Shown here: piece by piece, positions 34,135-57,500 of the stretch
Position numbering within the stretch: the stretch's first letter is position 1
Layout of the letters: each line of letters begins with the position of its first letter
NCBI GenBank assembly: GCA_030603365.1
Contig: JAUVXV010000017.1
Location: 1-63,686 of the forward strand
Length of the DNA: 63,686 nucleotides
Reading direction: 5' to 3'
Source: Candidatus Heimdallarchaeota archaeon
GTDB taxonomy: Archaea; Asgardarchaeota; Heimdallarchaeia; Heimdallarchaeales; Heimdallarchaeaceae
Program-made: the position numbers and the translations under genes
Notes under the pieces: model-generated
What the model was told of the DNA's origin: nothing
Databases searched by the model: none
Seen by the model: only the letters and a program-made list of their open reading frames with translations

Positions 34135-34746
34135 ATGAACCCAAATCTTAAAAAAATCCCAGTCATCGTTTTAGCAGCTGGAGATTCTCAAAGAATGGGA
34201 ATTCCTAAAGGTCTTTTGGACTATTACGGAAAACCATTCATAACCTGTCAAATAGAGTTTTTATTAGAAATAGGATTCTTAGATATAATTGTGATATTAG
34301 GGAAGGACAAGAATATTTACTTCGAACAGATTCCTGAACTCAAAGATTTCAGAGTCGTAATCAATCCCTCTCCAGAAAGAGGAACATTTTCATCGATTCT
34401 ATGTGGATTAAAACAGATATCTAAGACAGATCAAAGTGGTGTTTTCATTTTACCAATTGATGTTCCTAGTCCTGAAAAAGATGTTTGGATTCAATTAACA
34501 GAAGGGATGAGTTCCTCGAATGTGAATGTTACTATACCATCATTTGAGGGAAAGAAAGGTCACCCTGTATTAATATCAGAAGAATTTAGGCAGCATCTTC
34601 TTTCTTGTGAATCAGATTCTCGGTTAGATTTCGAAATTCACAAACAAATAAACCAACAAAAAGCAAAGATTATATCAGTTAATGATTTAAATATTACACT
34701 TAACCTCAATACAATTGAAGATTGGGAAGCATACAAGGTGAAATAA
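34135..34746 (+). CDS. mocA: Molybdenum cofactor cytidylyltransferase (MocA/YgfJ-like)
   Basis: LAAGDSQRMG-x-PK, PIDVP, GHPV; translationally coupled to Xdh. Confidence 0.8.
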   Translation: MNPNLKKIPVIVLAAGDSQRMGIPKGLLDYYGKPFITCQIEFLLEIGFLDIIVILGKDKNIYFEQIPELKDFRVVINPSPERGTFSSILCGLKQISKTDQSGVFILPIDVPSPEKDVWIQLTEGMSSSNVNVTIPSFEGKKGHPVLISEEFRQHLLSCESDSRLDFEIHKQINQQKAKIISVNDLNITLNLNTIEDWEAYKVK

Positions 34747-37379
34747 TGAAGGTTGCATTTACTCTTAATGGGGAAGAAATTACAGCAGAATACGAAGAAG
34801 GAATGAGTTTTCTTGATGTTCTTAGAGAAGTTTGTTTAATAAAAAGCTGTAAAGACGGCTGTTCAGGTCAAGGTTTTTGTGGAGCTTGTACAGTTCTGAT
34901 TAATGGTAAAGCTACCCTTTCTTGCAGACAAAAACCAGGATCTATTGAGGGAAAAGAAATAATCACATTAGAAGGGTTGGATAAGATTGAACAAGATATT
35001 CTTTCTAAGTCTTTAGTCAAAGAAGGAGCTATTCAATGTGGTTTCTGCACTCCTGGCATTCTATTAAAAATTAAAGGATTTCTTGATAAAAATCCAACAT
35101 CAACTAGAGAAGAAAAAGCCAAAGCTATTACAGGAAATCTCTGTAGATGCACTGGATATCAACGTATCATTGATGCTATAGAAACAGCAGAAGAACACTG
35201 GCTGAATAAAGATTCTAACATATCAGGTCCTCCTCGAAGAAAAGATTTCTTTGGCGAAAAATATGGGTTTGAGAGAGAATATACTCCAAAAGAAAAAGGT
35301 GTAGGAGATAGCACTCACCGCTACCGAGGAATAGAAATGGCTCTTGGTAAAAAACCATACATAGGTGATATGGAAGTAGATGAGATGCTGCACGGAGCAC
35401 TATTGCTCAGTGAGCATCCAAGAGCAAAGATAATTGAGATTGACACATCTGAAGCAGAATCAGCTTGTGGTGCAGTTAGAATATTTCTGGCGAAGGATGT
35501 ACCAGGAAAAAGGTTCATTGGTCATATCATATCTGATTGGCCAATTTTCATTTCGGAAGGGGAAACTACAAAATATGTTGGTGATGTACTTGCAATGGTT
35601 GTTGCAGATACAATGTACCACGCTAGAGCTGCTCTTGATAAAATCAAAGTTGATTACGAGGTGCTTGAACCAATTGATGATCCTCTGAAAGCTCTATCAG
35701 CTGAAGCTGACAAACTTCACAAAAAAGGTAACCTACTTGGCCATACATTTTTTGGAAGAGGTGATGTCGCTAAAGCACTTCAAAATTCTAAATATATAAT
35801 AAAGCAACAATTCAGAACACAAAGAATCGAACATGCTTTTATGGAAGTTGAAAGTAGCCTTGCTATACCAACTGAAGAAGGAGTACATGTTTACAGTCAA
35901 GGTCAAGGTGTTCATGAAGATCAGAGACAGATTGCAGAAGCTCTTGGTTTGGAAGAAGAAAAGGTTATTGTTGAACTTGTAACAAACGGAGGAGCATTTG
36001 GTGGCAAAGAAGATCTTACGTGCCAAGCTCAAACTGCTATTGCTGCTTTTCTATTGAAAAAGCCAGTAAAGACTGTTCTTACAAGAGAGCAATCCTTACT
36101 GATGCACGTAAAACGACATCCAATGACCATGGATTATGAGGTTGGAGCAGATGAAAATGGAAAGTTGACAGCTGTTAGAATGAAGCTGATAGCAGATACT
36201 GGTGCTTATGCCTCAGTTGGAGCTAAAGTGGCTGAACGCGCAGCTGGTCATTGCTGTGGTCCTTACTATGTTCCCAATGTTGATGTAGATGCAAAAGTAG
36301 TTTATACAAACAATCCAGTTTGCGGAGCAATGAGAGGATTTGGAGTCAATCAGACTTCTTTTGCAATAGAAACTTGTCTAAATATGATAGTTGAGAAGAT
36401 GAGAGAGGATGGGAATGAGATTGATGAATTTGATATACGAGAACGAAATATTCTCAGAGATGGACAAAGATTTGCAACAGGGCAAAAGATGACCAAAACA
36501 GTAATTGGTATGCAAAAGTGTTTAGACGCAGTAAAGGATGTATATAAAGAGTCCAAAGTTCCAACTGGTATAGCTTGTGGAATAAAAAATACAGGTATTG
36601 GTAATGGACTCGAGGATACAGGAAGAGTATTGATCAAAGTTTTAGATGATGGAAAATTAGATATTCTAACAGGTTTTACAGAAATGGGGCAGGGATTATT
36701 TACAGTAATTACACAAGTTGTAACTGAACTTACTGATATACCTCAATCTCAGATGAATGTTAGATCAATCAGTTATCCAAACACAAAATGTGGCATGACT
36801 ACTGCTTCAAGAGGAACAACTTTGGATACCATGGCTGCTAAAAAAGCTGCTGAGAAACTAGCATTAGTTCTCAAATCAAAATCCCTTAGTGAACTTTCTG
36901 GAGAGGAATTTCATGGAGAATATATTTGTGATTTCACTGTTAAACCTGGAACAAAAATAGACAATCCAGTAACTCACTTAGCATTCAGTTATGCAGTACA
37001 AGTAGCTTTTCTAGATGATGAAGGAAAATTAAAGAAAATGATAGCAGCTCACGATGTTGGTAGGGCAATTAATCCCATGGCATGTGCGGGTCAATTTGAG
37101 GGGGGTATACATATGGGTCTAGGTCATAGTCTTTCCGAGTCTTTCCCATCAACCAAAGGAGTACCAGATTCTTTGCGAATGAGAGATTTACAAATCATAA
37201 AAGCTAAAGACATGCCTGAAGTTGAGGTTATATTAATTGAGGTACCTGAAGAAGTGGGCGGATTTGGTGCGAAAGGTGTAGGTGAAATAGGTCTAGTTCC
37301 AACCGCAGGTGCTGTAACAGGTGCTCTCCATCAATTTGATGGTAAATGGCGATTTGAACTGCCTGTTTCGCGAAAATAA
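34746..37379 (+). CDS. xdh: Selenium-dependent xanthine dehydrogenase-type molybdenum hydroxylase (fused 2Fe-2S and Mo domains)
   Basis: KDGCSGQGFCGAC, QCGFCTPG, NLCRC, GGAFGGKED, GHCCGPY, AMRGFG, CGIKNTG, GAKGVGE; ATG overlaps the mocA stop (TAATG). Confidence 0.85.
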   Translation: MKVAFTLNGEEITAEYEEGMSFLDVLREVCLIKSCKDGCSGQGFCGACTVLINGKATLSCRQKPGSIEGKEIITLEGLDKIEQDILSKSLVKEGAIQCGFCTPGILLKIKGFLDKNPTSTREEKAKAITGNLCRCTGYQRIIDAIETAEEHWLNKDSNISGPPRRKDFFGEKYGFEREYTPKEKGVGDSTHRYRGIEMALGKKPYIGDMEVDEMLHGALLLSEHPRAKIIEIDTSEAESACGAVRIFLAKDVPGKRFIGHIISDWPIFISEGETTKYVGDVLAMVVADTMYHARAALDKIKVDYEVLEPIDDPLKALSAEADKLHKKGNLLGHTFFGRGDVAKALQNSKYIIKQQFRTQRIEHAFMEVESSLAIPTEEGVHVYSQGQGVHEDQRQIAEALGLEEEKVIVELVTNGGAFGGKEDLTCQAQTAIAAFLLKKPVKTVLTREQSLLMHVKRHPMTMDYEVGADENGKLTAVRMKLIADTGAYASVGAKVAERAAGHCCGPYYVPNVDVDAKVVYTNNPVCGAMRGFGVNQTSFAIETCLNMIVEKMREDGNEIDEFDIRERNILRDGQRFATGQKMTKTVIGMQKCLDAVKDVYKESKVPTGIACGIKNTGIGNGLEDTGRVLIKVLDDGKLDILTGFTEMGQGLFTVITQVVTELTDIPQSQMNVRSISYPNTKCGMTTASRGTTLDTMAAKKAAEKLALVLKSKSLSELSGEEFHGEYICDFTVKPGTKIDNPVTHLAFSYAVQVAFLDDEGKLKKMIAAHDVGRAINPMACAGQFEGGIHMGLGHSLSESFPSTKGVPDSLRMRDLQIIKAKDMPEVEVILIEVPEEVGGFGAKGVGEIGLVPTAGAVTGALHQFDGKWRFELPVSRK

Positions 37380-37392
37380 GAGAGAATGGTGA

Positions 37393-38349
37393 TCATGGAA
37401 CGATTCTGGTTCCTGTTTCACCCTTCAAAGCCCGACTGATGTTTTCAGGATTGGTGACAATGGCTTCTTTACCTCCCTGCTCTAAAAATCGAACTATGGC
37501 TTTAATTTTAGGCTCCATTGAACCTTTAGCAAAGTGAGTTCCTTCCTCTAGGTACTTCTTTGCCTCAGCAACAGTCATCTTATCCAATTCCACTTGATTA
37601 GGTTTACCAAAATTCAAGGAAACTTTTTCAACGGCGGTTGAAATCAAAAGCATATCTGCTTTAATTTCATTGGCTAGGAACGCAGATGCAAAATCTTTGT
37701 CAATTACTGCTGCAGTCCCCTCTAGTCCTTGATCGGTTTCAATAACTGGTATTCCTCCACCACCTACAGTAATTGTAATCGTACCAGAATCGATCAGTGC
37801 CTTGATGGCTTTCAGTTCCATAATTTCTACAGGTAACGGGGAAGCCACTACTCGTCTCCAACCACGACCGGCATCTTCAACCACATTCCAACCTAATTCT
37901 TCTTTCCTTTTTACTGCCTCTTCTTCTTCCATGAATGTTCCAATAGGTTTAGCAGGTGTCTGGAAAGCAGGATCATTTGAATCTACACGGACTTGGGTAA
38001 CCACTGTCGCAGCCGGTTTATCAATTCCCCTTTTTTTGAGCTCGTTTTGGATATTCTGTTGCAGGGAATAACCAATAGCGCCCTGGCTGTCAGCTCCGCA
38101 AACATCCAGAGGTAGTTCATGCATACCTTCCACCTTATGGGCAATTTCACTTCGTCGTAAAATGAATCCAACCTGAGGACCATTACCATGACCTATTGCA
38201 ATATCCCAACCTGACTCTACCATGTCTACTAAGTGAATAGAGGTTTCTTTGGCAGCTTCATATTGATCTTGTACAGTTTGCTGCTGCTTTGATTTGATGA
38301 GCGAGTTGCCGCCAATCGCAACAACTGCTACTTTTTTCTGTTCTGACAT
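37393..38349 (-). CDS. arcC: Carbamate kinase
   Basis: AIGGNSL, HGNGPQVG, KPIG, RRVVASP, AVIDKD, GSMEPK. Confidence 0.95.
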   Translation of the reverse strand: MSEQKKVAVVAIGGNSLIKSKQQQTVQDQYEAAKETSIHLVDMVESGWDIAIGHGNGPQVGFILRRSEIAHKVEGMHELPLDVCGADSQGAIGYSLQQNIQNELKKRGIDKPAATVVTQVRVDSNDPAFQTPAKPIGTFMEEEEAVKRKEELGWNVVEDAGRGWRRVVASPLPVEIMELKAIKALIDSGTITITVGGGGIPVIETDQGLEGTAAVIDKDFASAFLANEIKADMLLISTAVEKVSLNFGKPNQVELDKMTVAEAKKYLEEGTHFAKGSMEPKIKAIVRFLEQGGKEAIVTNPENISRALKGETGTRIVP

Positions 38350-38360
38350 TTGTATATCTC

Positions 38361-39350
38361 CTAACGCATGGTCAGTGCCATGACTGCCTTTTGTGCATGC
38401 ATCCGATTTTCAGCCTGATCAAAGACCACTGATTGCGGACCATCCATTACTTCGCTGGTGACTTCTACATCACGATCTGCGGGAAGTGGGTGCATATAAA
38501 TTGCATCTTTGTCCGCGAGAGCCATTTTCTTAGAATCAGTAATCCAATCCTTGTATTTATCTTGGATCTTTTTACCTTCAGTTGGATCTTGTGTTGTGAG
38601 TAAGGGCCCCCAGGATTTTGCATAAACGATATCTGCGTCTTTGAAACCTTCTTCCATACTGTCGACAACCTCAAATTTGCTACCAAATTTATCAGCTTGT
38701 TCTTGGGCTTGTTTCATGATTTCTGGCATCAACTTAAATTCAGGTGGATGTGCTAGTGTAACGTCCAATCCAAAACGTGGCATCTGTAGAATCAAAGATT
38801 GTGGAACAGAAATTGGTTTCAAGTAAGATGAAGCATATGCCCATGAAACCACTATTTTCTTTCCTCTTAAATCTCGACCTTTTTTCTCAATAATAGTCAT
38901 AATATCAGCCAGACATTGGTGAGGATGATAAATATCGCACTGCATATTTAAAACAGGTGAGCGTGATGCGGATGCTACATTGTTTATGTACTTATTTCCT
39001 ACTCCCCAATCGCAATGACGAATAGCAATGCCATCATAATACCTTCCAAGGATTTCTCCCAGTTCTTTTTCAGTGTCTCCATGAGAAACCTGAGTTGTAC
39101 GACTCTCCAAAAATGTGGCTTGTCCTCCCAGCTGAGCCATTCCTGACTCAAAAGAAGCACGGGTTCGTGTACTGGAGAAGAAGAAAAGCATACAGAGAGT
39201 TTTATCCAGAAGCAAAGCATGTCGTTCACCTAGAGCTCGCTTTTTCTTAAGATCCCAAGCTACTTCAAGGACAGTTTCCACTTCTTCTTTTGTAAAATCT
39301 AGGTCACCGATTAAATCACGACCTCGTAAATCAGATTGCATAATGATCAC
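38361..39350 (-). CDS. YgeW-like carbamoyltransferase (OTCase superfamily)
   Basis: SSTRT, HPHQ, SWAYASSYLKPISVPQS (YgeW-type loop), YAKSW, HPLP. Confidence 0.8.
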   Translation of the reverse strand: MIIMQSDLRGRDLIGDLDFTKEEVETVLEVAWDLKKKRALGERHALLLDKTLCMLFFFSSTRTRASFESGMAQLGGQATFLESRTTQVSHGDTEKELGEILGRYYDGIAIRHCDWGVGNKYINNVASASRSPVLNMQCDIYHPHQCLADIMTIIEKKGRDLRGKKIVVSWAYASSYLKPISVPQSLILQMPRFGLDVTLAHPPEFKLMPEIMKQAQEQADKFGSKFEVVDSMEEGFKDADIVYAKSWGPLLTTQDPTEGKKIQDKYKDWITDSKKMALADKDAIYMHPLPADRDVEVTSEVMDGPQSVVFDQAENRMHAQKAVMALTMR

Positions 39351-40304
39351 CTACTCCTCTGCACCTAAAACCAGAGCTAATAGAGCCATTCGCATTACAA
39401 CACCATTAAACCCTTCCTTCCAGTATCGAGCCCATCGGGTCTGATCCACATCTGGAGGGATTTCATCCATACGGGGTAAAGAGTGGAGTAAAATTGCATC
39501 AGATTTTGCTTTGGTTTCCAAAAGTTCTTTGGTGATTTTGAATTCGGGTGGTGTTAGTGCAACATCACCATCTCTTTCATCACGGGATTTGGTGTAATCA
39601 GGCTGAACTACTGGCTCAACAAGAATCACATCAGCATCTGCGATAACTGTACGAACATCATCACCTTCGGTAAAATTAAGACTGTTACGTTTGAAATCCT
39701 CACGGTATTCATCAGGAAGTTCCATGTCTTTTGGCGATATAAAAGTAATCGGACAGTCAAACTGAGTTAATGCATGACCAAGAGAGTGCATGGTACGCAT
39801 TCTCATATCACCTACAGCTACCCACTTTAATCCGTCTAAGTGACCTTTTTCTTTATAAATAGTATAGAGATCAGTGAGGATCTGAGTAGGATGTTCGCCC
39901 CAACCATCACCACCATTAATAATGGGGATACTTACCCATTTAGCAGCTTCTTTGGGAGCGCCTTTCTGGAAATGCCTCATGACGATGACATCTCCGTAAT
40001 TTTCGAGCATCTTGAAGGTATCCTTGATGGATTCCATATAAAAGTCACCTGCACGGGTCATTTTAGCGTCAGCAAATCCTGTCACCTTACCACCCAATCG
40101 AAGCATGGCTGTTTCGTGGGCTAAACGAGTCCTGGTTGAAGGCTGGTAAAAAGCAGTTACCATTATTTTATCTTTCAATAAATCTACATTTTTTCTATTG
40201 CGAGCTATCGGTGCTAATTTATCTGCAATCTCAAATATTCGCTCAAACTCATGGCGTTCAAAATCCTTTAATGATATAATGTCACGCCCTACAAAACTTC
40301 TCAT
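39351..40304 (-). CDS. ATCase-like carbamoyltransferase with altered acceptor site
   Basis: PSTRT, NGGDG-x-x-EHPTQ, GD-x-x-x-RT-x-HS, HSLPR; lacks KGES and RxQxER. Confidence 0.8.
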   Translation of the reverse strand: MRSFVGRDIISLKDFERHEFERIFEIADKLAPIARNRKNVDLLKDKIMVTAFYQPSTRTRLAHETAMLRLGGKVTGFADAKMTRAGDFYMESIKDTFKMLENYGDVIVMRHFQKGAPKEAAKWVSIPIINGGDGWGEHPTQILTDLYTIYKEKGHLDGLKWVAVGDMRMRTMHSLGHALTQFDCPITFISPKDMELPDEYREDFKRNSLNFTEGDDVRTVIADADVILVEPVVQPDYTKSRDERDGDVALTPPEFKITKELLETKAKSDAILLHSLPRMDEIPPDVDQTRWARYWKEGFNGVVMRMALLALVLGAEE

Positions 40305-40524
40305 AATAATTCTCCTTTATAATTTAGACTAGCTTCTTTTCAGCTAATCTTATTGTTCTGCCGGTACTAATTTTTCTTTATAAACTTTCTTTTCAGCCAC
40401 ATAAGATGAACTTTCAACGCCTTTCCCATCCTGTGGAGAGCATGAAAATTCAAACATACTGGAATAATTTTTGGATAACTTTTATTTATTATCCAGTTTA
40501 TGGTCAGTTAGGAAAGGTAGATTT

Positions 40525-41841
40525 ATGTTTGATCTCGGTTTGATTAATGGAAAAATATACCGGAATGCACAATTCACTCATTTAGATGTTTATATTGAGA
40601 AAGATAAAATTGCAGAAATAATTTCTCCAGATAAGAAATTAGATTGTAAGAAAACTATGGATTGCTCGGGTAAACTAATTATGCCTGGGTTTATTGACCC
40701 ACATGTTCATATCAACCTTGATTTAGGAGAATTCAAAACAAGTGATGATTATGAGAGTGCTTCGAAAGCTGCTGCATTTGGAGGGATCACGACTTTTATA
40801 GATTTCCTTGAACCAATCAATTCTGTTGATGAATTCGATGAAAAGCTTCAAAAAAAGCATAAGGAAGCAGAAACCTCATACATAGACTATAGTTTTCATA
40901 CTACAGTTGGTAACTTCAAAGATGATGTAGGAAAACTTGTTGAAACTTCCTTCAAAAATGGAATACCTTCTATTAAATTATTCACCACATACTCTGAATC
41001 AAATCGAAGATGTTCTTATGGAAAAATAAAGGAGTTTATAGAGAATTCTAGTTTAACAGATTCCTTGATTTTAATTCATGCAGAAAATGATGAAATTATA
41101 CTCAATACTAATGTAGATGATGAAACAGCAGTATATGAGAGTTCTAGACCAGCAAAATCAGAAATTGAAGAAATTGAGAAACTAGCACAAATCGTTTCAG
41201 AACTTAGAGGTAAAATCTATATTGTTCACGTAACTTGTGGATCTTCGATAGAACTCCTAAGAGAGAAATATTCACAACTATTACAGAACAATCTATTCAT
41301 AGAAAGTTGTCCCCAATATTTCTATCTTAACAAAGAAATCTACGAATCAGATTCTGGAAGGTTATATCTTTTAGCACCACCTCTACGGTCGAGAGATGAA
41401 CAAGAGAAATTGAAGAAAAATATAGCAAGCGTAAACACAATTGGAACAGATCATGCTCCATTTACCAAAGAAGAAAAATTAAGATATAATAAGGCAAGCC
41501 AAGTTCCTAAAGGGCTTGGTAGTTTAGAATATAGTTTTTCACTTATGTATAATCTCTTCAGAGAAAGTATTATTGCTAAGTATACAATTAATCCTGCAAT
41601 AATTCACAATCTCTTTCCAAAAAAAGGAATTATTCAAGAAGGAGCAGATGCTGATTTAGTCATATTTGATCCTGATAAGGAACTAATTATTGATTCAGGT
41701 CAATCGAAATCAGATTATAGTGCTTATGAAGGCATTAAAATAAAAGGTGCGGTAGAATCGACAATCTTGAGAGGTCAATTTATTGTAGAAAATAGAAAGT
41801 TCATTGGAACAATTAAAGGTCAGTTTATCAAAAGGAAATAG
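40525..41841 (+). CDS. Dihydropyrimidinase/hydantoinase (HyuA/HydA-like)
   Basis: PGFIDPHVH, GGITT, SIKLF, HAEN, APPLR, GTDHAP, GADADLV. Confidence 0.88.
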   Translation: MFDLGLINGKIYRNAQFTHLDVYIEKDKIAEIISPDKKLDCKKTMDCSGKLIMPGFIDPHVHINLDLGEFKTSDDYESASKAAAFGGITTFIDFLEPINSVDEFDEKLQKKHKEAETSYIDYSFHTTVGNFKDDVGKLVETSFKNGIPSIKLFTTYSESNRRCSYGKIKEFIENSSLTDSLILIHAENDEIILNTNVDDETAVYESSRPAKSEIEEIEKLAQIVSELRGKIYIVHVTCGSSIELLREKYSQLLQNNLFIESCPQYFYLNKEIYESDSGRLYLLAPPLRSRDEQEKLKKNIASVNTIGTDHAPFTKEEKLRYNKASQVPKGLGSLEYSFSLMYNLFRESIIAKYTINPAIIHNLFPKKGIIQEGADADLVIFDPDKELIIDSGQSKSDYSAYEGIKIKGAVESTILRGQFIVENRKFIGTIKGQFIKRK

Positions 41842-47933: not shown

Positions 47934-48509
47934 ATGACAAAATACGAATTTGGTATAAATATTCAAAACATTGTTGCTGCTGTAGATTTGTTTACTACAA
48001 TAGATCTTGTGAAAATTTATCATTTGCTTATTGATGAAGAAGGATTGTATATAGATTATAATCCCGACAAATTTCCTGGGGTGATACTTAAAATAAAAGA
48101 TCCTAAAGTTTCATGTCTTATTTTCTATTCTGGCAAATTAGTAATTACTGGTGGTAAGACAACAGATGATGTAACTAAAGGAGTGAAAGAAATTTCTAAG
48201 ATACTCAAGTCTGTAGGAACAATAATTACTGAAGAACCTGAAATTGTTATACACAATATAGTTGCTTCAGGAAATTTCAATCACAAACAGTTGAATCTCG
48301 AGCTTATTGCTCTTTGGCTTGACCAGAGTATGTATGAACCAGAACAATTCCCTGGATTAATCTTTAGATTAAAAGAGCCTAAGACGGTTCTTCTCCTATT
48401 TCAATCTGGAAATCTTGTCTGTACTGGAGCAAAAAATGAAAAGCAAGTATTTGAAGCTGTTGAAAATACATACAAAAAACTGGAAGAGATAAATGCTTTT
48501 GATTTCTAG
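47934..48509 (+). CDS. tbp: TATA-box binding protein
   Basis: Two repeats: NIVA...YNPDKFPG...LIFYSGKLVITG and NIVAS...YEPEQFPG...LLFQSGNLVCTGAK. Confidence 0.95.
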   Translation: MTKYEFGINIQNIVAAVDLFTTIDLVKIYHLLIDEEGLYIDYNPDKFPGVILKIKDPKVSCLIFYSGKLVITGGKTTDDVTKGVKEISKILKSVGTIITEEPEIVIHNIVASGNFNHKQLNLELIALWLDQSMYEPEQFPGLIFRLKEPKTVLLLFQSGNLVCTGAKNEKQVFEAVENTYKKLEEINAFDF

Positions 48510-56165: not shown

Positions 56166-56187
56166 AAAAAAGGCAAAATTCATATGA
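56166..56187. repeat. Dispersed repeat AAAAAAGRCAAAATTCATATGA (also 47664-47685, 54180-54201)
   Basis: Three near-exact copies upstream of propeller promoters. Confidence 0.7.
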
Positions 56188-56207
56188 GAAAAGAATATTG
56201 TCAAACC

Positions 56208-57500
56208 ATGAAGGCTATAATCAATGTAAAAATCTATGATTATGAGACCTATATAGAAAACGGTTATTGTATTTATGGTAAAGAAATAGTTGAAGTTGGA
56301 ACTATGGACAATTTTCCTGATTTTGATGAAGAGATTATTGATGGAACTAACCAAATACTTCTCCCTGGGTTCATTAATTCTCATACACACATCTATTCTA
56401 CACTAGTTCGAGGAGCTTCCATACCTTTTAACCCCAAGAGTTTTAGAGATATTCTTGAACAGCTCTGGTGGAAGTTTGACAGCAAGTTGGATAATACTTC
56501 TACTTTCCACAGCGCCATGGTTTATGGATTAGAATCTTTGAAAAGTGGTGTAACTTCGTTAATTGATCATCACGCAAGTGGTTTAGAAATTATTGGCAGT
56601 CTTGATGCACTAAAGAGAGCTATTGTTGACAAACTTGGTATGAGAGGGATTTTCTGTTTTGAAACCAGTGATCGTTTTAATATTACAGAATGCATCGAAG
56701 AAAATCTTGCTGGTTTAAAATATGACTCTCATGAAGCAAGAGGAATGTTTGGTCTACATGCATCCATGAGTCTTTCTGAAGAAACTCTCGATAAAGTTTC
56801 AAGGATTCTTGCTGGTGCTCCTATCCATGTTCATGTTGCTGAAAGTATAGAAGATGAAGAAGATTCTTTAGAAAAATATAACACACGAGTTATTGATCGA
56901 TATCTGAAGTATGGTCTTTTGAACAAAGATTCCATTCTTGCTCATTGTGTTCATATTGATGAACAAGAAGCAAAAAACATTAGTTACAAAAAAGCTGTTA
57001 TCGCTCTTAATCCAACTTCAAATATGAATAACGCTGTTGGTGCGTTCAATATTGATCTATTCAGAAACAACAATATTCCGATACTTATTGGTAATGATGG
57101 ACTCGGTACAAACATTGCTAAAGAATGGACCTATTTCTTCTTTGCTGGTAAAGCTGGTATCAACGATGCAGCTGGTATCGGTTTTGATGAATTGTTGAAA
57201 TACATTAATGGTTCTTATGAATACTTTGGTCGTCAAATGGGGATCAAAATTGGTAAAATCAAAGAAGGATACGTTGCTGATTTTGTTCTTGTTCCTTATC
57301 TTAATCCAACCGATATGAATCAAAGTAATGCCTTTGGTCATGTATTCTTTGGATTATTTGAAAATTTCAAACCATCTTATGTGATAGTCAAAGGAAAGAC
57401 CCTCATAGAGGACTACGAGAGTATTTTTGATGAGGAAACATTATATAAGAACGCCCATATTGCTTCTAAAGCCCTATGGGAAAGGTTAGGTGATGCTTAG
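56208..57500 (+). CDS. ssnA: SsnA-like amidohydrolase
   Basis: PGFINSHTHIYSTLVRG, ILEQLWW, IDHHAS, CFETSDR, GLHAS, HVAES, NPTSNMNNAVG, GNDG. Confidence 0.85.
   Translation: MKAIINVKIYDYETYIENGYCIYGKEIVEVGTMDNFPDFDEEIIDGTNQILLPGFINSHTHIYSTLVRGASIPFNPKSFRDILEQLWWKFDSKLDNTSTFHSAMVYGLESLKSGVTSLIDHHASGLEIIGSLDALKRAIVDKLGMRGIFCFETSDRFNITECIEENLAGLKYDSHEARGMFGLHASMSLSEETLDKVSRILAGAPIHVHVAESIEDEEDSLEKYNTRVIDRYLKYGLLNKDSILAHCVHIDEQEAKNISYKKAVIALNPTSNMNNAVGAFNIDLFRNNNIPILIGNDGLGTNIAKEWTYFFFAGKAGINDAAGIGFDELLKYINGSYEYFGRQMGIKIGKIKEGYVADFVLVPYLNPTDMNQSNAFGHVFFGLFENFKPSYVIVKGKTLIEDYESIFDEETLYKNAHIASKALWERLGDA

What the first reader, a model, noticed from the sequence alone, without database searches (positions are those of the whole stretch)
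37393..40304. Two tandem catabolic transcarbamylases plus carbamate kinase: possible double ATP capture replacing the YgeY hydrolase
One enzyme has the YgeW-type loop (WAYASSYLKPISVPQ, KSW). The other has an ATCase scaffold but lacks the aspartate-binding KGES lysine (RAGDFYMES) and the RxQxER motif (EPVVQPDY), so it is unlikely to be PyrB. The urate-derived intermediate 2,3-diureidopropionate has two ureido groups. Removing both by phosphorolysis would give two carbamoyl phosphates and two ATP instead of one. The two proteins might alternatively form a heteromer.
Basis: inference. Interest (0 to 1): 0.7.

Follow-up and report, generated by a model that had tools for sequence, protein, structure and literature searches.

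The report
Two carbamoyltransferases replacing YgeY hydrolase
A Heimdall-group archaeon carries, inside a bacterial-type oxygen-free uric-acid breakdown cluster, two different carbamoyltransferases plus a carbamate kinase. Comparison with relatives shows that the aspartate-carbamoyltransferase look-alike sits where other genomes have the hydrolase YgeY, so each purine probably yields two ATP instead of one.

Summary
Window 37393-40304 (minus strand) encodes an ATCase-like enzyme (pATC), a compact YgeW-like enzyme and a carbamate kinase. They lie between a selenium-type xanthine dehydrogenase and a hydantoinase. SsnA-like, PydA-like, ThrC-like and XdhAB genes lie 16 kb away.

pATC keeps every carbamoyl-phosphate residue but lacks K84 and the canonical RxQ. 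Genomes with the trio also hold a genuine PyrB.

- In 301 Chloroflexota genomes, YgeY is missing from 10 of 18 pATC-positive genomes but from only 4 of 43 pATC-negative ones (odds ratio 0.08).
- In the window's own genus, 12 pATC genomes have no YgeY, and the 3 YgeY genomes have no pATC.
- The two cassettes occupy the same chromosomal slot. One genome holding the YgeY cassette has no pATC and a trio mini-YgeW that is a pseudogene.
- The compact YgeW often occurs without pATC, which argues against an obligate heteromer.

The trio nests within Anaerolineales sequences, so it reached the archaeon by horizontal transfer.

Caveats: YgeY still co-occurs with pATC in 26-44% of bacterial genomes, and no biochemistry exists.

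This scan found the same trio several times before in bacterial genomes.

The parts
39351..40304 (-). pATC: ATCase-like carbamoyltransferase ('pseudo-ATCase') with an intact carbamoyl-phosphate site and an altered second-substrate site
   Evidence: STRTR, MRH, HPTQ and R167 are kept. K84->F/Y, K83->D, S80->R, E50->Q, HPLP->HSLP, and the 240s loop is rebuilt. It scores over the TIGR00670 cut-off (257.5 > 236.95), hence the public label 'aspartate carbamoyltransferase'.
38361..39350 (-). Compact YgeW-like carbamoyltransferase ('mini-YgeW'); the true start is probably 39341
   Evidence: It is 36% identical to E. coli YgeW, and it is that protein's best hit in the genome. The Pro-rich loop, KSW (K270), Q160, K203, D334 and E344 are conserved. 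It lacks YgeW's terminal helices and 240s insert, and it falls below the TIGR03316 cut-off (209 < 500).
37393..38349 (-). Carbamate kinase
   Evidence: over two NCBIfam cut-offs. It is 56% identical to E. coli YqeA.
40471..41841 (+). Hydantoinase/dihydropyrimidinase-like amidohydrolase, a candidate HyuA analogue, divergent from the trio
   Evidence: TIGR02033 302 bits, cut-off 393. It is 29% identical to E. coli HyuA.
34722..37379 (+). Fused Fe-S/Mo selenium-dependent xanthine-dehydrogenase-family enzyme, a candidate urate reductase
   Evidence: TIGR03311 879.6 > 830.45.
34135..34746 (+). MocA-like molybdenum cofactor cytidylyltransferase
56184..57500 (+). SsnA-like amidohydrolase (opens the six-membered ring)
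   Evidence: It is the best SsnA hit in the genome, at 318-350 bits, below the cut-off.
57501..58577 (+). PydA/DHOD-like flavoprotein with a ferredoxin tail, a candidate ring reductase (UacX analogue)
58574..59785 (+). Threonine-synthase-like PLP enzyme, a candidate replacement for the diaminopropionate ammonia-lyase YgeX
   Evidence: A homologue lies within 10 kb of the trio in at least 30 of 83 loci and follows the YgeY-type operon in L137. YgeX was not found in the own genome and is present in 3 of 50 trio genomes.
59782..63392 (+). XdhA-type Fe-S/FAD subunit (59782-61155) and XdhB-type Mo subunit (61152-63392) of a xanthine dehydrogenase

Best explanation
The three genes form the ATP-yielding lower module of a reductive (2,8-dioxopurine type) uric-acid degradation pathway. 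Heimdallarchaeia acquired this version of the module from Anaerolineales bacteria.

The upstream enzymes encoded in the window should convert urate to 2,3-diureidopropionate. They are a selenium-type XDH, a PydA-like reductase, an SsnA-like enzyme and a hydantoinase. The compact YgeW-like enzyme then does what E. coli YgeW does: it removes one ureido group by phosphorolysis. The ATCase-like enzyme takes the step that the hydrolase YgeY performs in E. coli, but also by phosphorolysis. It most likely cleaves the N-alpha (2-) ureido group of 3-amino-2-ureidopropionate or of diureidopropionate. Carbamate kinase converts both carbamoyl phosphates to ATP, giving two per urate. A ThrC-like PLP enzyme probably converts diaminopropionate to pyruvate.

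Shown here: gene identities, conserved residues, operon conservation, co-occurrence patterns, and the cassette swap at one locus. Inferred: the substrates, which ureido group each enzyme cleaves, the order of steps, and the ATP yield.
For: 1. The trio is conserved in essentially all 83 related loci examined. It sits beside purine genes: 8-oxoguanine deaminase, adenine deaminase, a GntR/UTRA regulator and a Bmp-type ABC transporter.

2. Trio genomes carry the upper pathway. SsnA passes its cut-off in 43 of 50 and D-hydantoinase in 42 of 50. XdhD/YgfM and F420 genes lie next to SsnA.

3. Both transcarbamylases keep complete carbamoyl-phosphate sites. The compact YgeW also keeps YgeW's proposed second-substrate residues (residue roles from PMC4581275).

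4. pATC retains R167, the alpha-carboxylate ligand. It loses K84 and the canonical R229/Q231, and it gains D at the K83 position. That pattern fits an N-alpha-carbamoyl amino acid whose beta-substituent is no longer a carboxylate. This step is inference from established ATCase residue roles.

5. In the Chloroflexota sample, YgeY is absent from 10 of 18 pATC-positive genomes but from only 4 of 43 pATC-negative ones (odds ratio 0.08).

6. pATC occupies YgeY's operon position. The three forms are YgeY-miniYgeW-CK (L137, L138), pATC-miniYgeW-CK, and YgeY-pATC-miniYgeW-CK.

7. In the window's genus, the 12 pATC genomes have no YgeY and the 3 YgeY genomes have no pATC. Between the same flanking genes (Se-XDH and hydantoinase), the window has CK<-miniYgeW<-pATC, while G324 and G255 have YgeY->YgeW2. 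G243 has YgeY->YgeW2 plus a decaying trio: pATC is gone and the mini-YgeW has a stop codon, STHTR in place of STRTR, and a lost start.

8. The own genome has no YgeY or YgeX over threshold. Its best M20 hit (149 bits) has a similar-scoring counterpart (140-158 bits) in most genomes of the genus.
Against: - YgeY is retained beside pATC in 13 of 50 to 8 of 18 bacterial pATC genomes. Co-expressing a hydrolase and a phosphorylase for one substrate looks wasteful and may mean their substrates differ.
- The co-occurrence statistics are not corrected for shared ancestry, and the genomes are incomplete metagenome bins. The own genome is 89% complete.
- The 240s-loop alignment is ambiguous. K and R of the invariant KSRDER may still reach the pocket.
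- Published work disagrees on which ureido group YgeW cleaves (PMC12990295), so the regiochemistry assigned here is uncertain.
- Ureido phosphorolysis is thermodynamically uphill. It needs pulling by carbamate kinase and by the terminal lyase, which is itself unverified.
- There is no expression or enzyme data.
- The window's SsnA-like and hydantoinase-like proteins score below their family cut-offs.
Confidence: 0.6

Rival explanations
1. pATC belongs to the purine-catabolic module but does not do YgeY's job. It would act on another ureido compound. Candidates are the other ureido position of diureidopropionate as a parallel entry route, another stereoisomer, the alternative SsnA product, or an allantoate-like ureide as the Rubrobacter UGTCase does. 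In YgeY-less genomes the second ureido group would then be removed by an unrecognised enzyme.
For: YgeY, pATC and the compact YgeW are co-operonic in 9 of 83 loci, and YgeY passes its cut-off in 13 of 50 to 8 of 18 pATC genomes. A 63%-identical pATC lineage has YgeY inserted between pATC and the YgeW-like gene. A related pseudo-ATCase was reported to act on allantoate (PMC4016543). The 240s loop may still carry K/R.
Against: YgeY loss is about six times more frequent when pATC is present. pATC and YgeY are mutually exclusive in the window's genus and swap within one locus. No other candidate hydrolase is conserved beside the trio. No allantoinase is among the recurrent neighbour gene clusters of the trio loci that were annotated.
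Confidence: 0.25
2. The two transcarbamylases form one heteromeric enzyme with a single activity equivalent to YgeW, so only one carbamoyl phosphate is captured.
For: The two genes are always adjacent where pATC occurs. Both evolve more slowly than the kinase: median identity to the window is 78% and 78% against 66%, and both exceed the kinase in 51-52 of 52 loci. Transcarbamylase active sites are shared between neighbouring subunits (PMC4581275).
Against: The compact YgeW at 73-78% identity occurs without pATC in about 43 of 301 Chloroflexota genomes, in YgeY-miniYgeW-CK operons. Each protein has a complete carbamoyl-phosphate site of its own. All solved transcarbamylase catalytic units are homotrimers (PMC4581275). 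A single activity would leave YgeY-less genomes unable to remove the second ureido group.
Confidence: 0.04
3. pATC is a genuine, if divergent, aspartate carbamoyltransferase. The trio would then be an anabolic carbamoyl-phosphate unit in which the carbamate kinase acts as a synthetase, as in Pyrococcus.
For: pATC scores over the TIGR00670 equivalog cut-off and its best solved relative is the Pyrococcus abyssi ATCase. In the 89%-complete own genome no other ATCase, PyrI, CarB or PyrE was found.
Against: K84, the canonical R229/Q231, E50 and P266 are replaced throughout the family. Trio genomes also hold a canonical PyrB and OTCase. A same-genus archaeon holds pyrB-pyrI plus the trio. The operon is regulated and placed with purine deaminases and transporters. 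The own genome also lacks purF and purD, so it looks like a nucleotide scavenger.
Confidence: 0.04

Closest known systems
E. coli / Clostridium sporogenes lower module of the reductive urate (2,8-dioxopurine) pathway: YgeW + YqeA + YgeY + YgeX (bioRxiv 10.1101/2025.04.24.650524; PMC12507026; PMC12990295)
   Same: The chemistry of the first step is the same: a knotted-type carbamoyltransferase with YgeW's loop and substrate residues, coupled to carbamate kinase for ATP. The upstream enzyme families (XDH-family, SsnA, hydantoinase) also match.
   Different: The YgeW homologue is about 70 residues shorter and scores below the family cut-off. The hydrolase YgeY is replaced by a second, ATCase-type carbamoyltransferase. 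YgeX is replaced by a ThrC-like PLP enzyme. YgfK is replaced by a small PydA-like flavoprotein. The host is an archaeon, whereas the pathway has been described as restricted to bacteria.
Pseudo-ATCases of Barba et al. 2013 (PMC4016543), including the ureidoglycine carbamoyltransferase Rxyl_2847
   Same: These are ATCase-branch paralogues that keep STRT and HPTQ, change HPLP and the R-x-Q motif, and coexist with a genuine PyrB. Their subgroup 2 (Nocardioides sp. JS614) lies next to a ygeW homologue, xdhABC and hyuA. Their subgroup 3 has HSLP plus V-x-P, which the window protein also shows (VEP / VQP).
   Different: No function was assigned to subgroups 2 and 3. Rxyl_2847 acts on allantoate in an oxidative pathway and, according to PMC4581275, keeps the S80/K84 equivalents that this family has lost.
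Catabolic ornithine and putrescine carbamoyltransferases with carbamate kinase (arginine and agmatine deiminase pathways)
   Same: Phosphorolysis of a ureido compound is pulled by carbamate kinase to make ATP by substrate-level phosphorylation.
   Different: Those pathways have one ureido group and one transferase per substrate. Here two different transferases feed one kinase.
2,3-diaminopropionate carbamoyltransferases of zwittermicin and viomycin biosynthesis (reviewed in PMC4581275)
   Same: They interconvert diaminopropionate and its ureido derivative (albizziin) using carbamoyl phosphate.
   Different: They are anabolic, belong to the OTCase branch, and carry an HDLP motif. Neither window enzyme has HDLP (HSLP and HPLP).

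Membership tests
Aspartate carbamoyltransferase (PyrB) | Score over the curated equivalog cut-off (TIGR00670) | tested here: met
   257.5 bits against a cut-off of 236.95. NF002032 is not met (228 < 263).
Aspartate carbamoyltransferase (PyrB) | Aspartate-binding residues: K84 from the neighbouring chain and the R229-x-Q231 (RxQxER) motif | tested here: not met
   K84->F/Y and K83->D. R229->P or K and Q231->V or R, depending on the alignment. The replacements are invariant in 84 family members.
Aspartate carbamoyltransferase (PyrB) | HPLP motif and the E50 domain-closure residue | tested here: not met
   HSLP, and Q at the E50 position.
Aspartate carbamoyltransferase (PyrB) | It is the organism's only ATCase and sits in a pyrimidine-gene context (pyrI, pyrC) | tested here: not met
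   Canonical PyrB coexists with pATC in G028, G031 and G049, and pyrB-pyrI coexists with it in same-genus G001. The window context is purine catabolism. In the own genome no second ATCase was found, at 89% completeness.
Pseudo-ATCase (Barba et al. 2013) | ATCase-branch paralogue with STRT and HPTQ kept, H265-P268 changed (HSLP / H[ST]LP) and R230-Q232 replaced | tested here: met
   STRT, HPTQ and HSLP are present, the canonical RxQ is absent, and VEP / VQP fits their 'VXP' (motif table in PMC4016543).
Pseudo-ATCase (Barba et al. 2013) | Phylogenetic placement in one of their three subgroups | not tested
   Their reference sequences (Nocardioides, Rhodopirellula, Rubrobacter) were not retrievable with the tools used.
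YgeW (knotted carbamoyltransferase YTCase) | Score over the curated cut-off (TIGR03316 / NF005538) | tested here: not met
   208.7 < 500 and 216.1 < 453.
YgeW (knotted carbamoyltransferase YTCase) | Proline-rich loop, extended 120s loop, and the proposed substrate residues Q160, K203, K270, D334, E344 | tested here: met
   Pairwise alignment with E. coli YgeW. The loop and KSW are at least 98% conserved in 58 homologues. The knot itself was not modelled.
YgeW (knotted carbamoyltransferase YTCase) | Extra N- and C-terminal helices and two extra helices in the 240s loop | tested here: not met
   329 aa against 396 aa, with gaps of 11, 16 and 6 residues and missing termini.
YgeW (knotted carbamoyltransferase YTCase) | Adjacent carbamate kinase and a urate-pathway context | tested here: met
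Carbamate kinase | Score over curated cut-offs | tested here: met
   NF009007 416 > 266 and TIGR00746 377.3 > 358.25.
Reductive urate degradation pathway (cluster level) | XDH-family reductase, ring reductase, SsnA, hydantoinase, carbamoyltransferase + carbamate kinase, second decarbamoylase, and a diaminopropionate lyase | tested here: inconclusive
   A candidate for every step lies in the window. However, the SsnA-like and hydantoinase-like proteins score below their cut-offs, and YgeY, YgeX and YgfK orthologues were not found. Activity cannot be tested with these tools.

The most novel reading that the evidence does not exclude
Some Heimdallarchaeia ferment purines through a horizontally acquired bacterial reductive urate pathway in which both ureido groups of 2,3-diureidopropionate are removed by phosphorolysis, one by a compact YgeW and one by an ATCase-derived enzyme. 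This doubles the substrate-level ATP yield. The ATCase-derived enzyme would be a new transcarbamylase specificity, a 2,3-diaminopropionate N-alpha-carbamoyltransferase, that is annotated as PyrB in the public Chloroflexota and Heimdallarchaeia records seen here.
Probability: 0.5. Interest if true: 0.7.

Novelty: new variant of a known kind. Interest (0 to 1): 0.62.

Why it matters
**A new enzyme activity.** If correct, the ATCase scaffold gains a new specificity. An annotation error would also be corrected: the family's public names seen here, in Heimdallarchaeia and Chloroflexota genomes, read 'aspartate carbamoyltransferase'.

**Energy yield.** The 2025 urate pathway would have an energy-optimised form yielding 2 ATP rather than 1 per purine. 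That matters for energy-starved sediment anaerobes.

**Host range.** The pathway was recently described as confined to bacteria. This extends it to Asgard archaea, where Xdh genes have so far been read as antioxidant urate producers (bioRxiv 10.1101/2025.02.26.640444).

**An open question becomes testable.** The natural hydrolase/phosphorylase swap at one locus gives a clean comparative system. It may also help settle which ureido group YgeW and YgeY each cleave, a point left open in PMC12990295.

Tried and rejected
- **The look-up of sequencing runs was closed.** No expression or read-level evidence could be gathered, and read laying was therefore not used.
- **Complex prediction was not run.** Two paralogues of homotrimeric enzymes would tend to pass by likeness to solved trimers. 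The co-occurrence data answered the heteromer question better.
- **Structure prediction was not run.** The tools return no residue-level superposition, so it could not settle the ambiguity in the 240s loop.
- **A first extraction of family members failed.** The length filter was too strict, because tblastn trims the alignments to 300 aa. It was redone.
- **Representative look-ups gave little context.** P0124 lay on a 1.1-kb contig and P0128 returned no DNA.
- **Rejected: the trio as a pyrimidine-degradation module** (carbamoyl-beta-alanine). The conserved neighbours are purine deaminases and the compact YgeW keeps YgeW's substrate residues.
- **Rejected: contamination of the archaeal bin.** TBP, a Ras-family GTPase, and CCDC47-like and zf-AN1 genes flank the cluster on the same contig. 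Eleven more genomes of the genus carry the trio.
Full report
**What is there.** The stated coordinates hold three co-directional minus-strand genes separated by 0-11 bases.
- 39351-40304 encodes a 317-aa ATCase-like protein, called pATC here.
- 38361-39350 encodes a 329-aa OTC/YgeW-like protein. Its true start is probably 39341.
- 37393-38349 encodes a carbamate kinase that passes two curated cut-offs.

The contig is archaeal. A TATA-binding protein, a Ras-family GTPase, and CCDC47-like and zf-AN1 proteins lie on both sides of the cluster. The nearest public relative is labelled Candidatus Heimdallarchaeota.

**Surroundings.** A hydantoinase-like gene lies divergently upstream of pATC (40471-41841). 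Downstream of the kinase, on the other strand, lie a selenium-dependent XDH-family enzyme (34722-37379, over the TIGR03311 cut-off), MocA and a TIGR04076 protein. At 56184-63392 lie an SsnA-like amidohydrolase, a PydA/DHOD-like flavoprotein with a ferredoxin tail, a threonine-synthase-like PLP enzyme and XdhA/XdhB.

This gene set matches, family by family, the reductive urate pathway published in 2025: XdhD/XdhAC, YgfK/UacX, SsnA, HyuA, YgeW+YqeA, YgeY, YgeX. The exceptions are that no YgeY and no YgeX exist anywhere in the 89%-complete genome.

**The two transferases.** The second enzyme is the genome's best match to E. coli YgeW, at 36% identity. It shares the proline-rich loop (WAYxxSYxKPxSVPQ), the KSW lysine, and the residues that Shi et al. 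proposed for YgeW's second substrate (PMC4581275). It lacks YgeW's terminal helices and 240s insert, and it fails the YgeW cut-offs. I call it a compact YgeW.

pATC keeps STRTR, R105, HPTQ and R167. It has R for S80, D for K83, F/Y for K84, Q for E50 and HSLP for HPLP. Two alignments of the 240s loop are possible. HMMER and MAFFT put P at R229. BLASTP treats EPVVQPDY as an insertion and aligns the invariant KSRDER with RVQKER. Either way the canonical aspartate site is gone. The replacements are fixed in 84 family members.

The family scores above the TIGR00670 cut-off, which explains its public label 'aspartate carbamoyltransferase'.

**Not PyrB.** Three Chloroflexota genomes with the trio also carry a canonical ATCase (RVQKER, HPLP) and a canonical OTCase. 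A Heimdall genome of the same genus has pyrB-pyrI next to a pyrF-like gene, purD and purF, in addition to the trio. The window's own genome lacks pyrBI, purD, purF, carB and pyrE in the assembled 89%. That suggests a nucleotide scavenger rather than a hidden anabolic role for pATC.

**Distribution and context.** pATC homologues at 75-80% identity occur in hundreds of Chloroflexota, mostly Anaerolineae. In 83 loci the order pATC - compact YgeW - kinase is essentially invariant. The recurrent neighbours are 8-oxoguanine deaminase (over its cut-off), adenine deaminase, a GntR/UTRA regulator, a Bmp-type ABC transporter, a ThrC-like PLP enzyme and a CysK-like PLP enzyme.

Of 50 trio genomes, 43 have SsnA over its cut-off and 42 have a D-hydantoinase over its cut-off, but only 13 have YgeY and 3 have YgeX. 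Near SsnA lie XdhD/YgfM homologues, a luciferase-like F420 enzyme and F420 biosynthesis genes. Li et al. had noted this for Chloroflexota.

In an evenly drawn sample of 301 Chloroflexota genomes, I searched for YgeY, pATC, SsnA and the compact YgeW.
- Sixty-one genomes have the compact YgeW or pATC.
- With pATC: 8 have YgeY and 10 do not.
- Without pATC: 39 have YgeY and 4 do not.
- The odds ratio is 0.08 and Fisher p = 2.6e-4. This is not corrected for shared ancestry, and the genomes are incomplete bins.

The commonest arrangement is YgeY - compact YgeW - kinase - ThrC-like (L137, L138). pATC, when present, sits exactly where YgeY sits.

Because the compact YgeW at 73-78% identity works without pATC in about 43 genomes, an obligate heteromer is unlikely. 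YgeY is nevertheless kept beside pATC in a sizeable minority. That minority is mostly one Anaerolineae clade plus a basal lineage.

**A natural experiment inside the window's genus.** Of 301 Asgard genomes sampled, 16 carry pATC, and 12 of those are among 23 genomes of the window's genus. In that genus YgeY (630 bits, 62% identical to E. coli YgeY) occurs only in G243, G255 and G324. All three lack pATC, and none of the 12 pATC genomes has YgeY.

The same slot between the Se-XDH and the hydantoinase holds different cassettes:

| Genome | Content of the slot |
|---|---|
| Window | kinase <- compact YgeW <- pATC |
| G324, G255 | YgeY -> a second compact YgeW (46% identical to the window's) |
| G243 | the YgeY cassette plus a decaying trio: pATC absent; compact YgeW with an in-frame stop, STHTR for STRTR and no start; an open 324-aa kinase frame |

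The two cassettes therefore behave as functional alternatives that are not maintained together in this genus.

**Origin.** In a maximum-likelihood tree, the window and the other Heimdall pATC nest inside an Anaerolineales clade of 13 rows with SH-aLRT 100. The three genes have 41-43% G+C against 33% for the genome and 32-38% for their neighbours. This points to a fairly recent transfer from Anaerolineales. Four other Asgard genomes carry a 65-68% version, which suggests a separate acquisition. The direction of transfer is inferred from nesting only.

**Mechanism proposed.** The compact YgeW removes one ureido group of 2,3-diureidopropionate by phosphorolysis, as shown for E. coli YgeW. pATC removes the other. 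Two observations suggest that pATC cleaves the 2-ureido group, which is YgeY's substrate in the scheme of Liu et al.:
- ATCases act on N-alpha-carbamoyl amino acids.
- pATC keeps the alpha-carboxylate arginine while changing the beta-carboxylate site.

The kinase then makes two ATP, and the ThrC-like enzyme is the candidate for converting diaminopropionate to pyruvate. These steps are inference. The published disagreement over YgeW's regiochemistry and the loop ambiguity limit confidence.

**Known or new.** Barba et al. (2013) defined 'pseudo-ATCases' and noted one next to a ygeW homologue, xdhABC and hyuA in Nocardioides, without assigning a function. The 2025 papers and the commentary do not mention a second transferase. 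The only paper found linking Heimdallarchaeia and Xdh reads it as antioxidant urate production.

Earlier agents of this scan reached the same two-transferase reading on several bacterial genomes, so the core idea is not new to the scan.
- the quantified YgeY anticorrelation;
- the exclusion of an obligate heteromer;
- the within-genus cassette swap with a pseudogene;
- the archaeal host and its bacterial donor lineage.

**Verdict.** I classify it as a new variant of a known kind.

Noticed in passing
window:58574-59785: A threonine-synthase-like PLP gene overlaps both neighbours in the ssnA-like / flavoprotein / xdhAB block. Homologues follow the trio in at least 30 of 83 bacterial loci, and one follows the YgeY-type operon in L137. 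YgeX is present in only 3 of 50 trio genomes. It is probably the diaminopropionate-consuming enzyme of this pathway version.
   Followed up: partly
L141:7620-8618 (G243, same genus): The compact YgeW of the trio is a pseudogene here: an in-frame stop, STHTR instead of STRTR, and a lost start. pATC is deleted, and an intact YgeY + second YgeW-like cassette sits beside it.
   Followed up: yes
own genome G000 (C15:413460-419644 and genome-wide): No purF, purD, pyrB, pyrI, carB or pyrE was found in the 89%-complete assembly, although pyrF-like and pyrD-like genes are present. A same-genus relative has purF-purD-pyrI-pyrB next to the pyrF-like gene. This lineage may depend on scavenged nucleotides.
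   Followed up: partly
L134:11250-15375, L135, L132 (Chloroflexota SsnA loci): SsnA is followed by an F420-dependent oxidoreductase, CofE, CofD, CofC, a luciferase-like F420 enzyme, YgfM and an XdhD homologue. This is the F420-type ring-reduction variant that Li et al. mention in one sentence.
   Followed up: partly
L034:5948-7333 and L028:7358-9157 (typical of 38 and 32 of 83 loci): An 8-oxoguanine deaminase (670 bits, cut-off 532) and an adenine deaminase head the Chloroflexota trio operon under a GntR/UTRA regulator. This suggests that damaged or free purine bases are the feedstock.
   Followed up: partly
G028:C2:87588-88776 (inside L072): YgeY next to the trio is split into two frames (profile positions 2-153 and 158-392). 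It is either a decaying gene or a long-read indel error.
   Followed up: no
L061:15350-16816 (18 of 83 loci): A 488-aa CysK-like PLP protein often follows the ThrC-like gene after the trio. Its role is unknown, and I did not look for it in the window's genome.
   Followed up: no
window:26190-31646 and 47934-48509: Eukaryote-like genes (a Ras-family GTPase, a CCDC47/PAT-complex-like protein, an AN1 zinc-finger protein) and a TBP gene sit on the same contig as the bacterial-type purine cluster.
   Followed up: no
window:39351-40304 and public homologues: The pATC homologues that carry a source name are labelled 'aspartate carbamoyltransferase (catalytic subunit)' by NCBI and JGI, because the family scores just above the TIGR00670 cut-off. 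This looks like a systematic misannotation.
   Followed up: partly
L143:3675-5921 (G324) and L144: The Heimdall YgeY is 62% identical to E. coli YgeY, and its G+C is close to that of the host (0.36-0.38). This suggests an older, separate acquisition of the hydrolase cassette. No carbamate kinase is adjacent in G324.
   Followed up: partly
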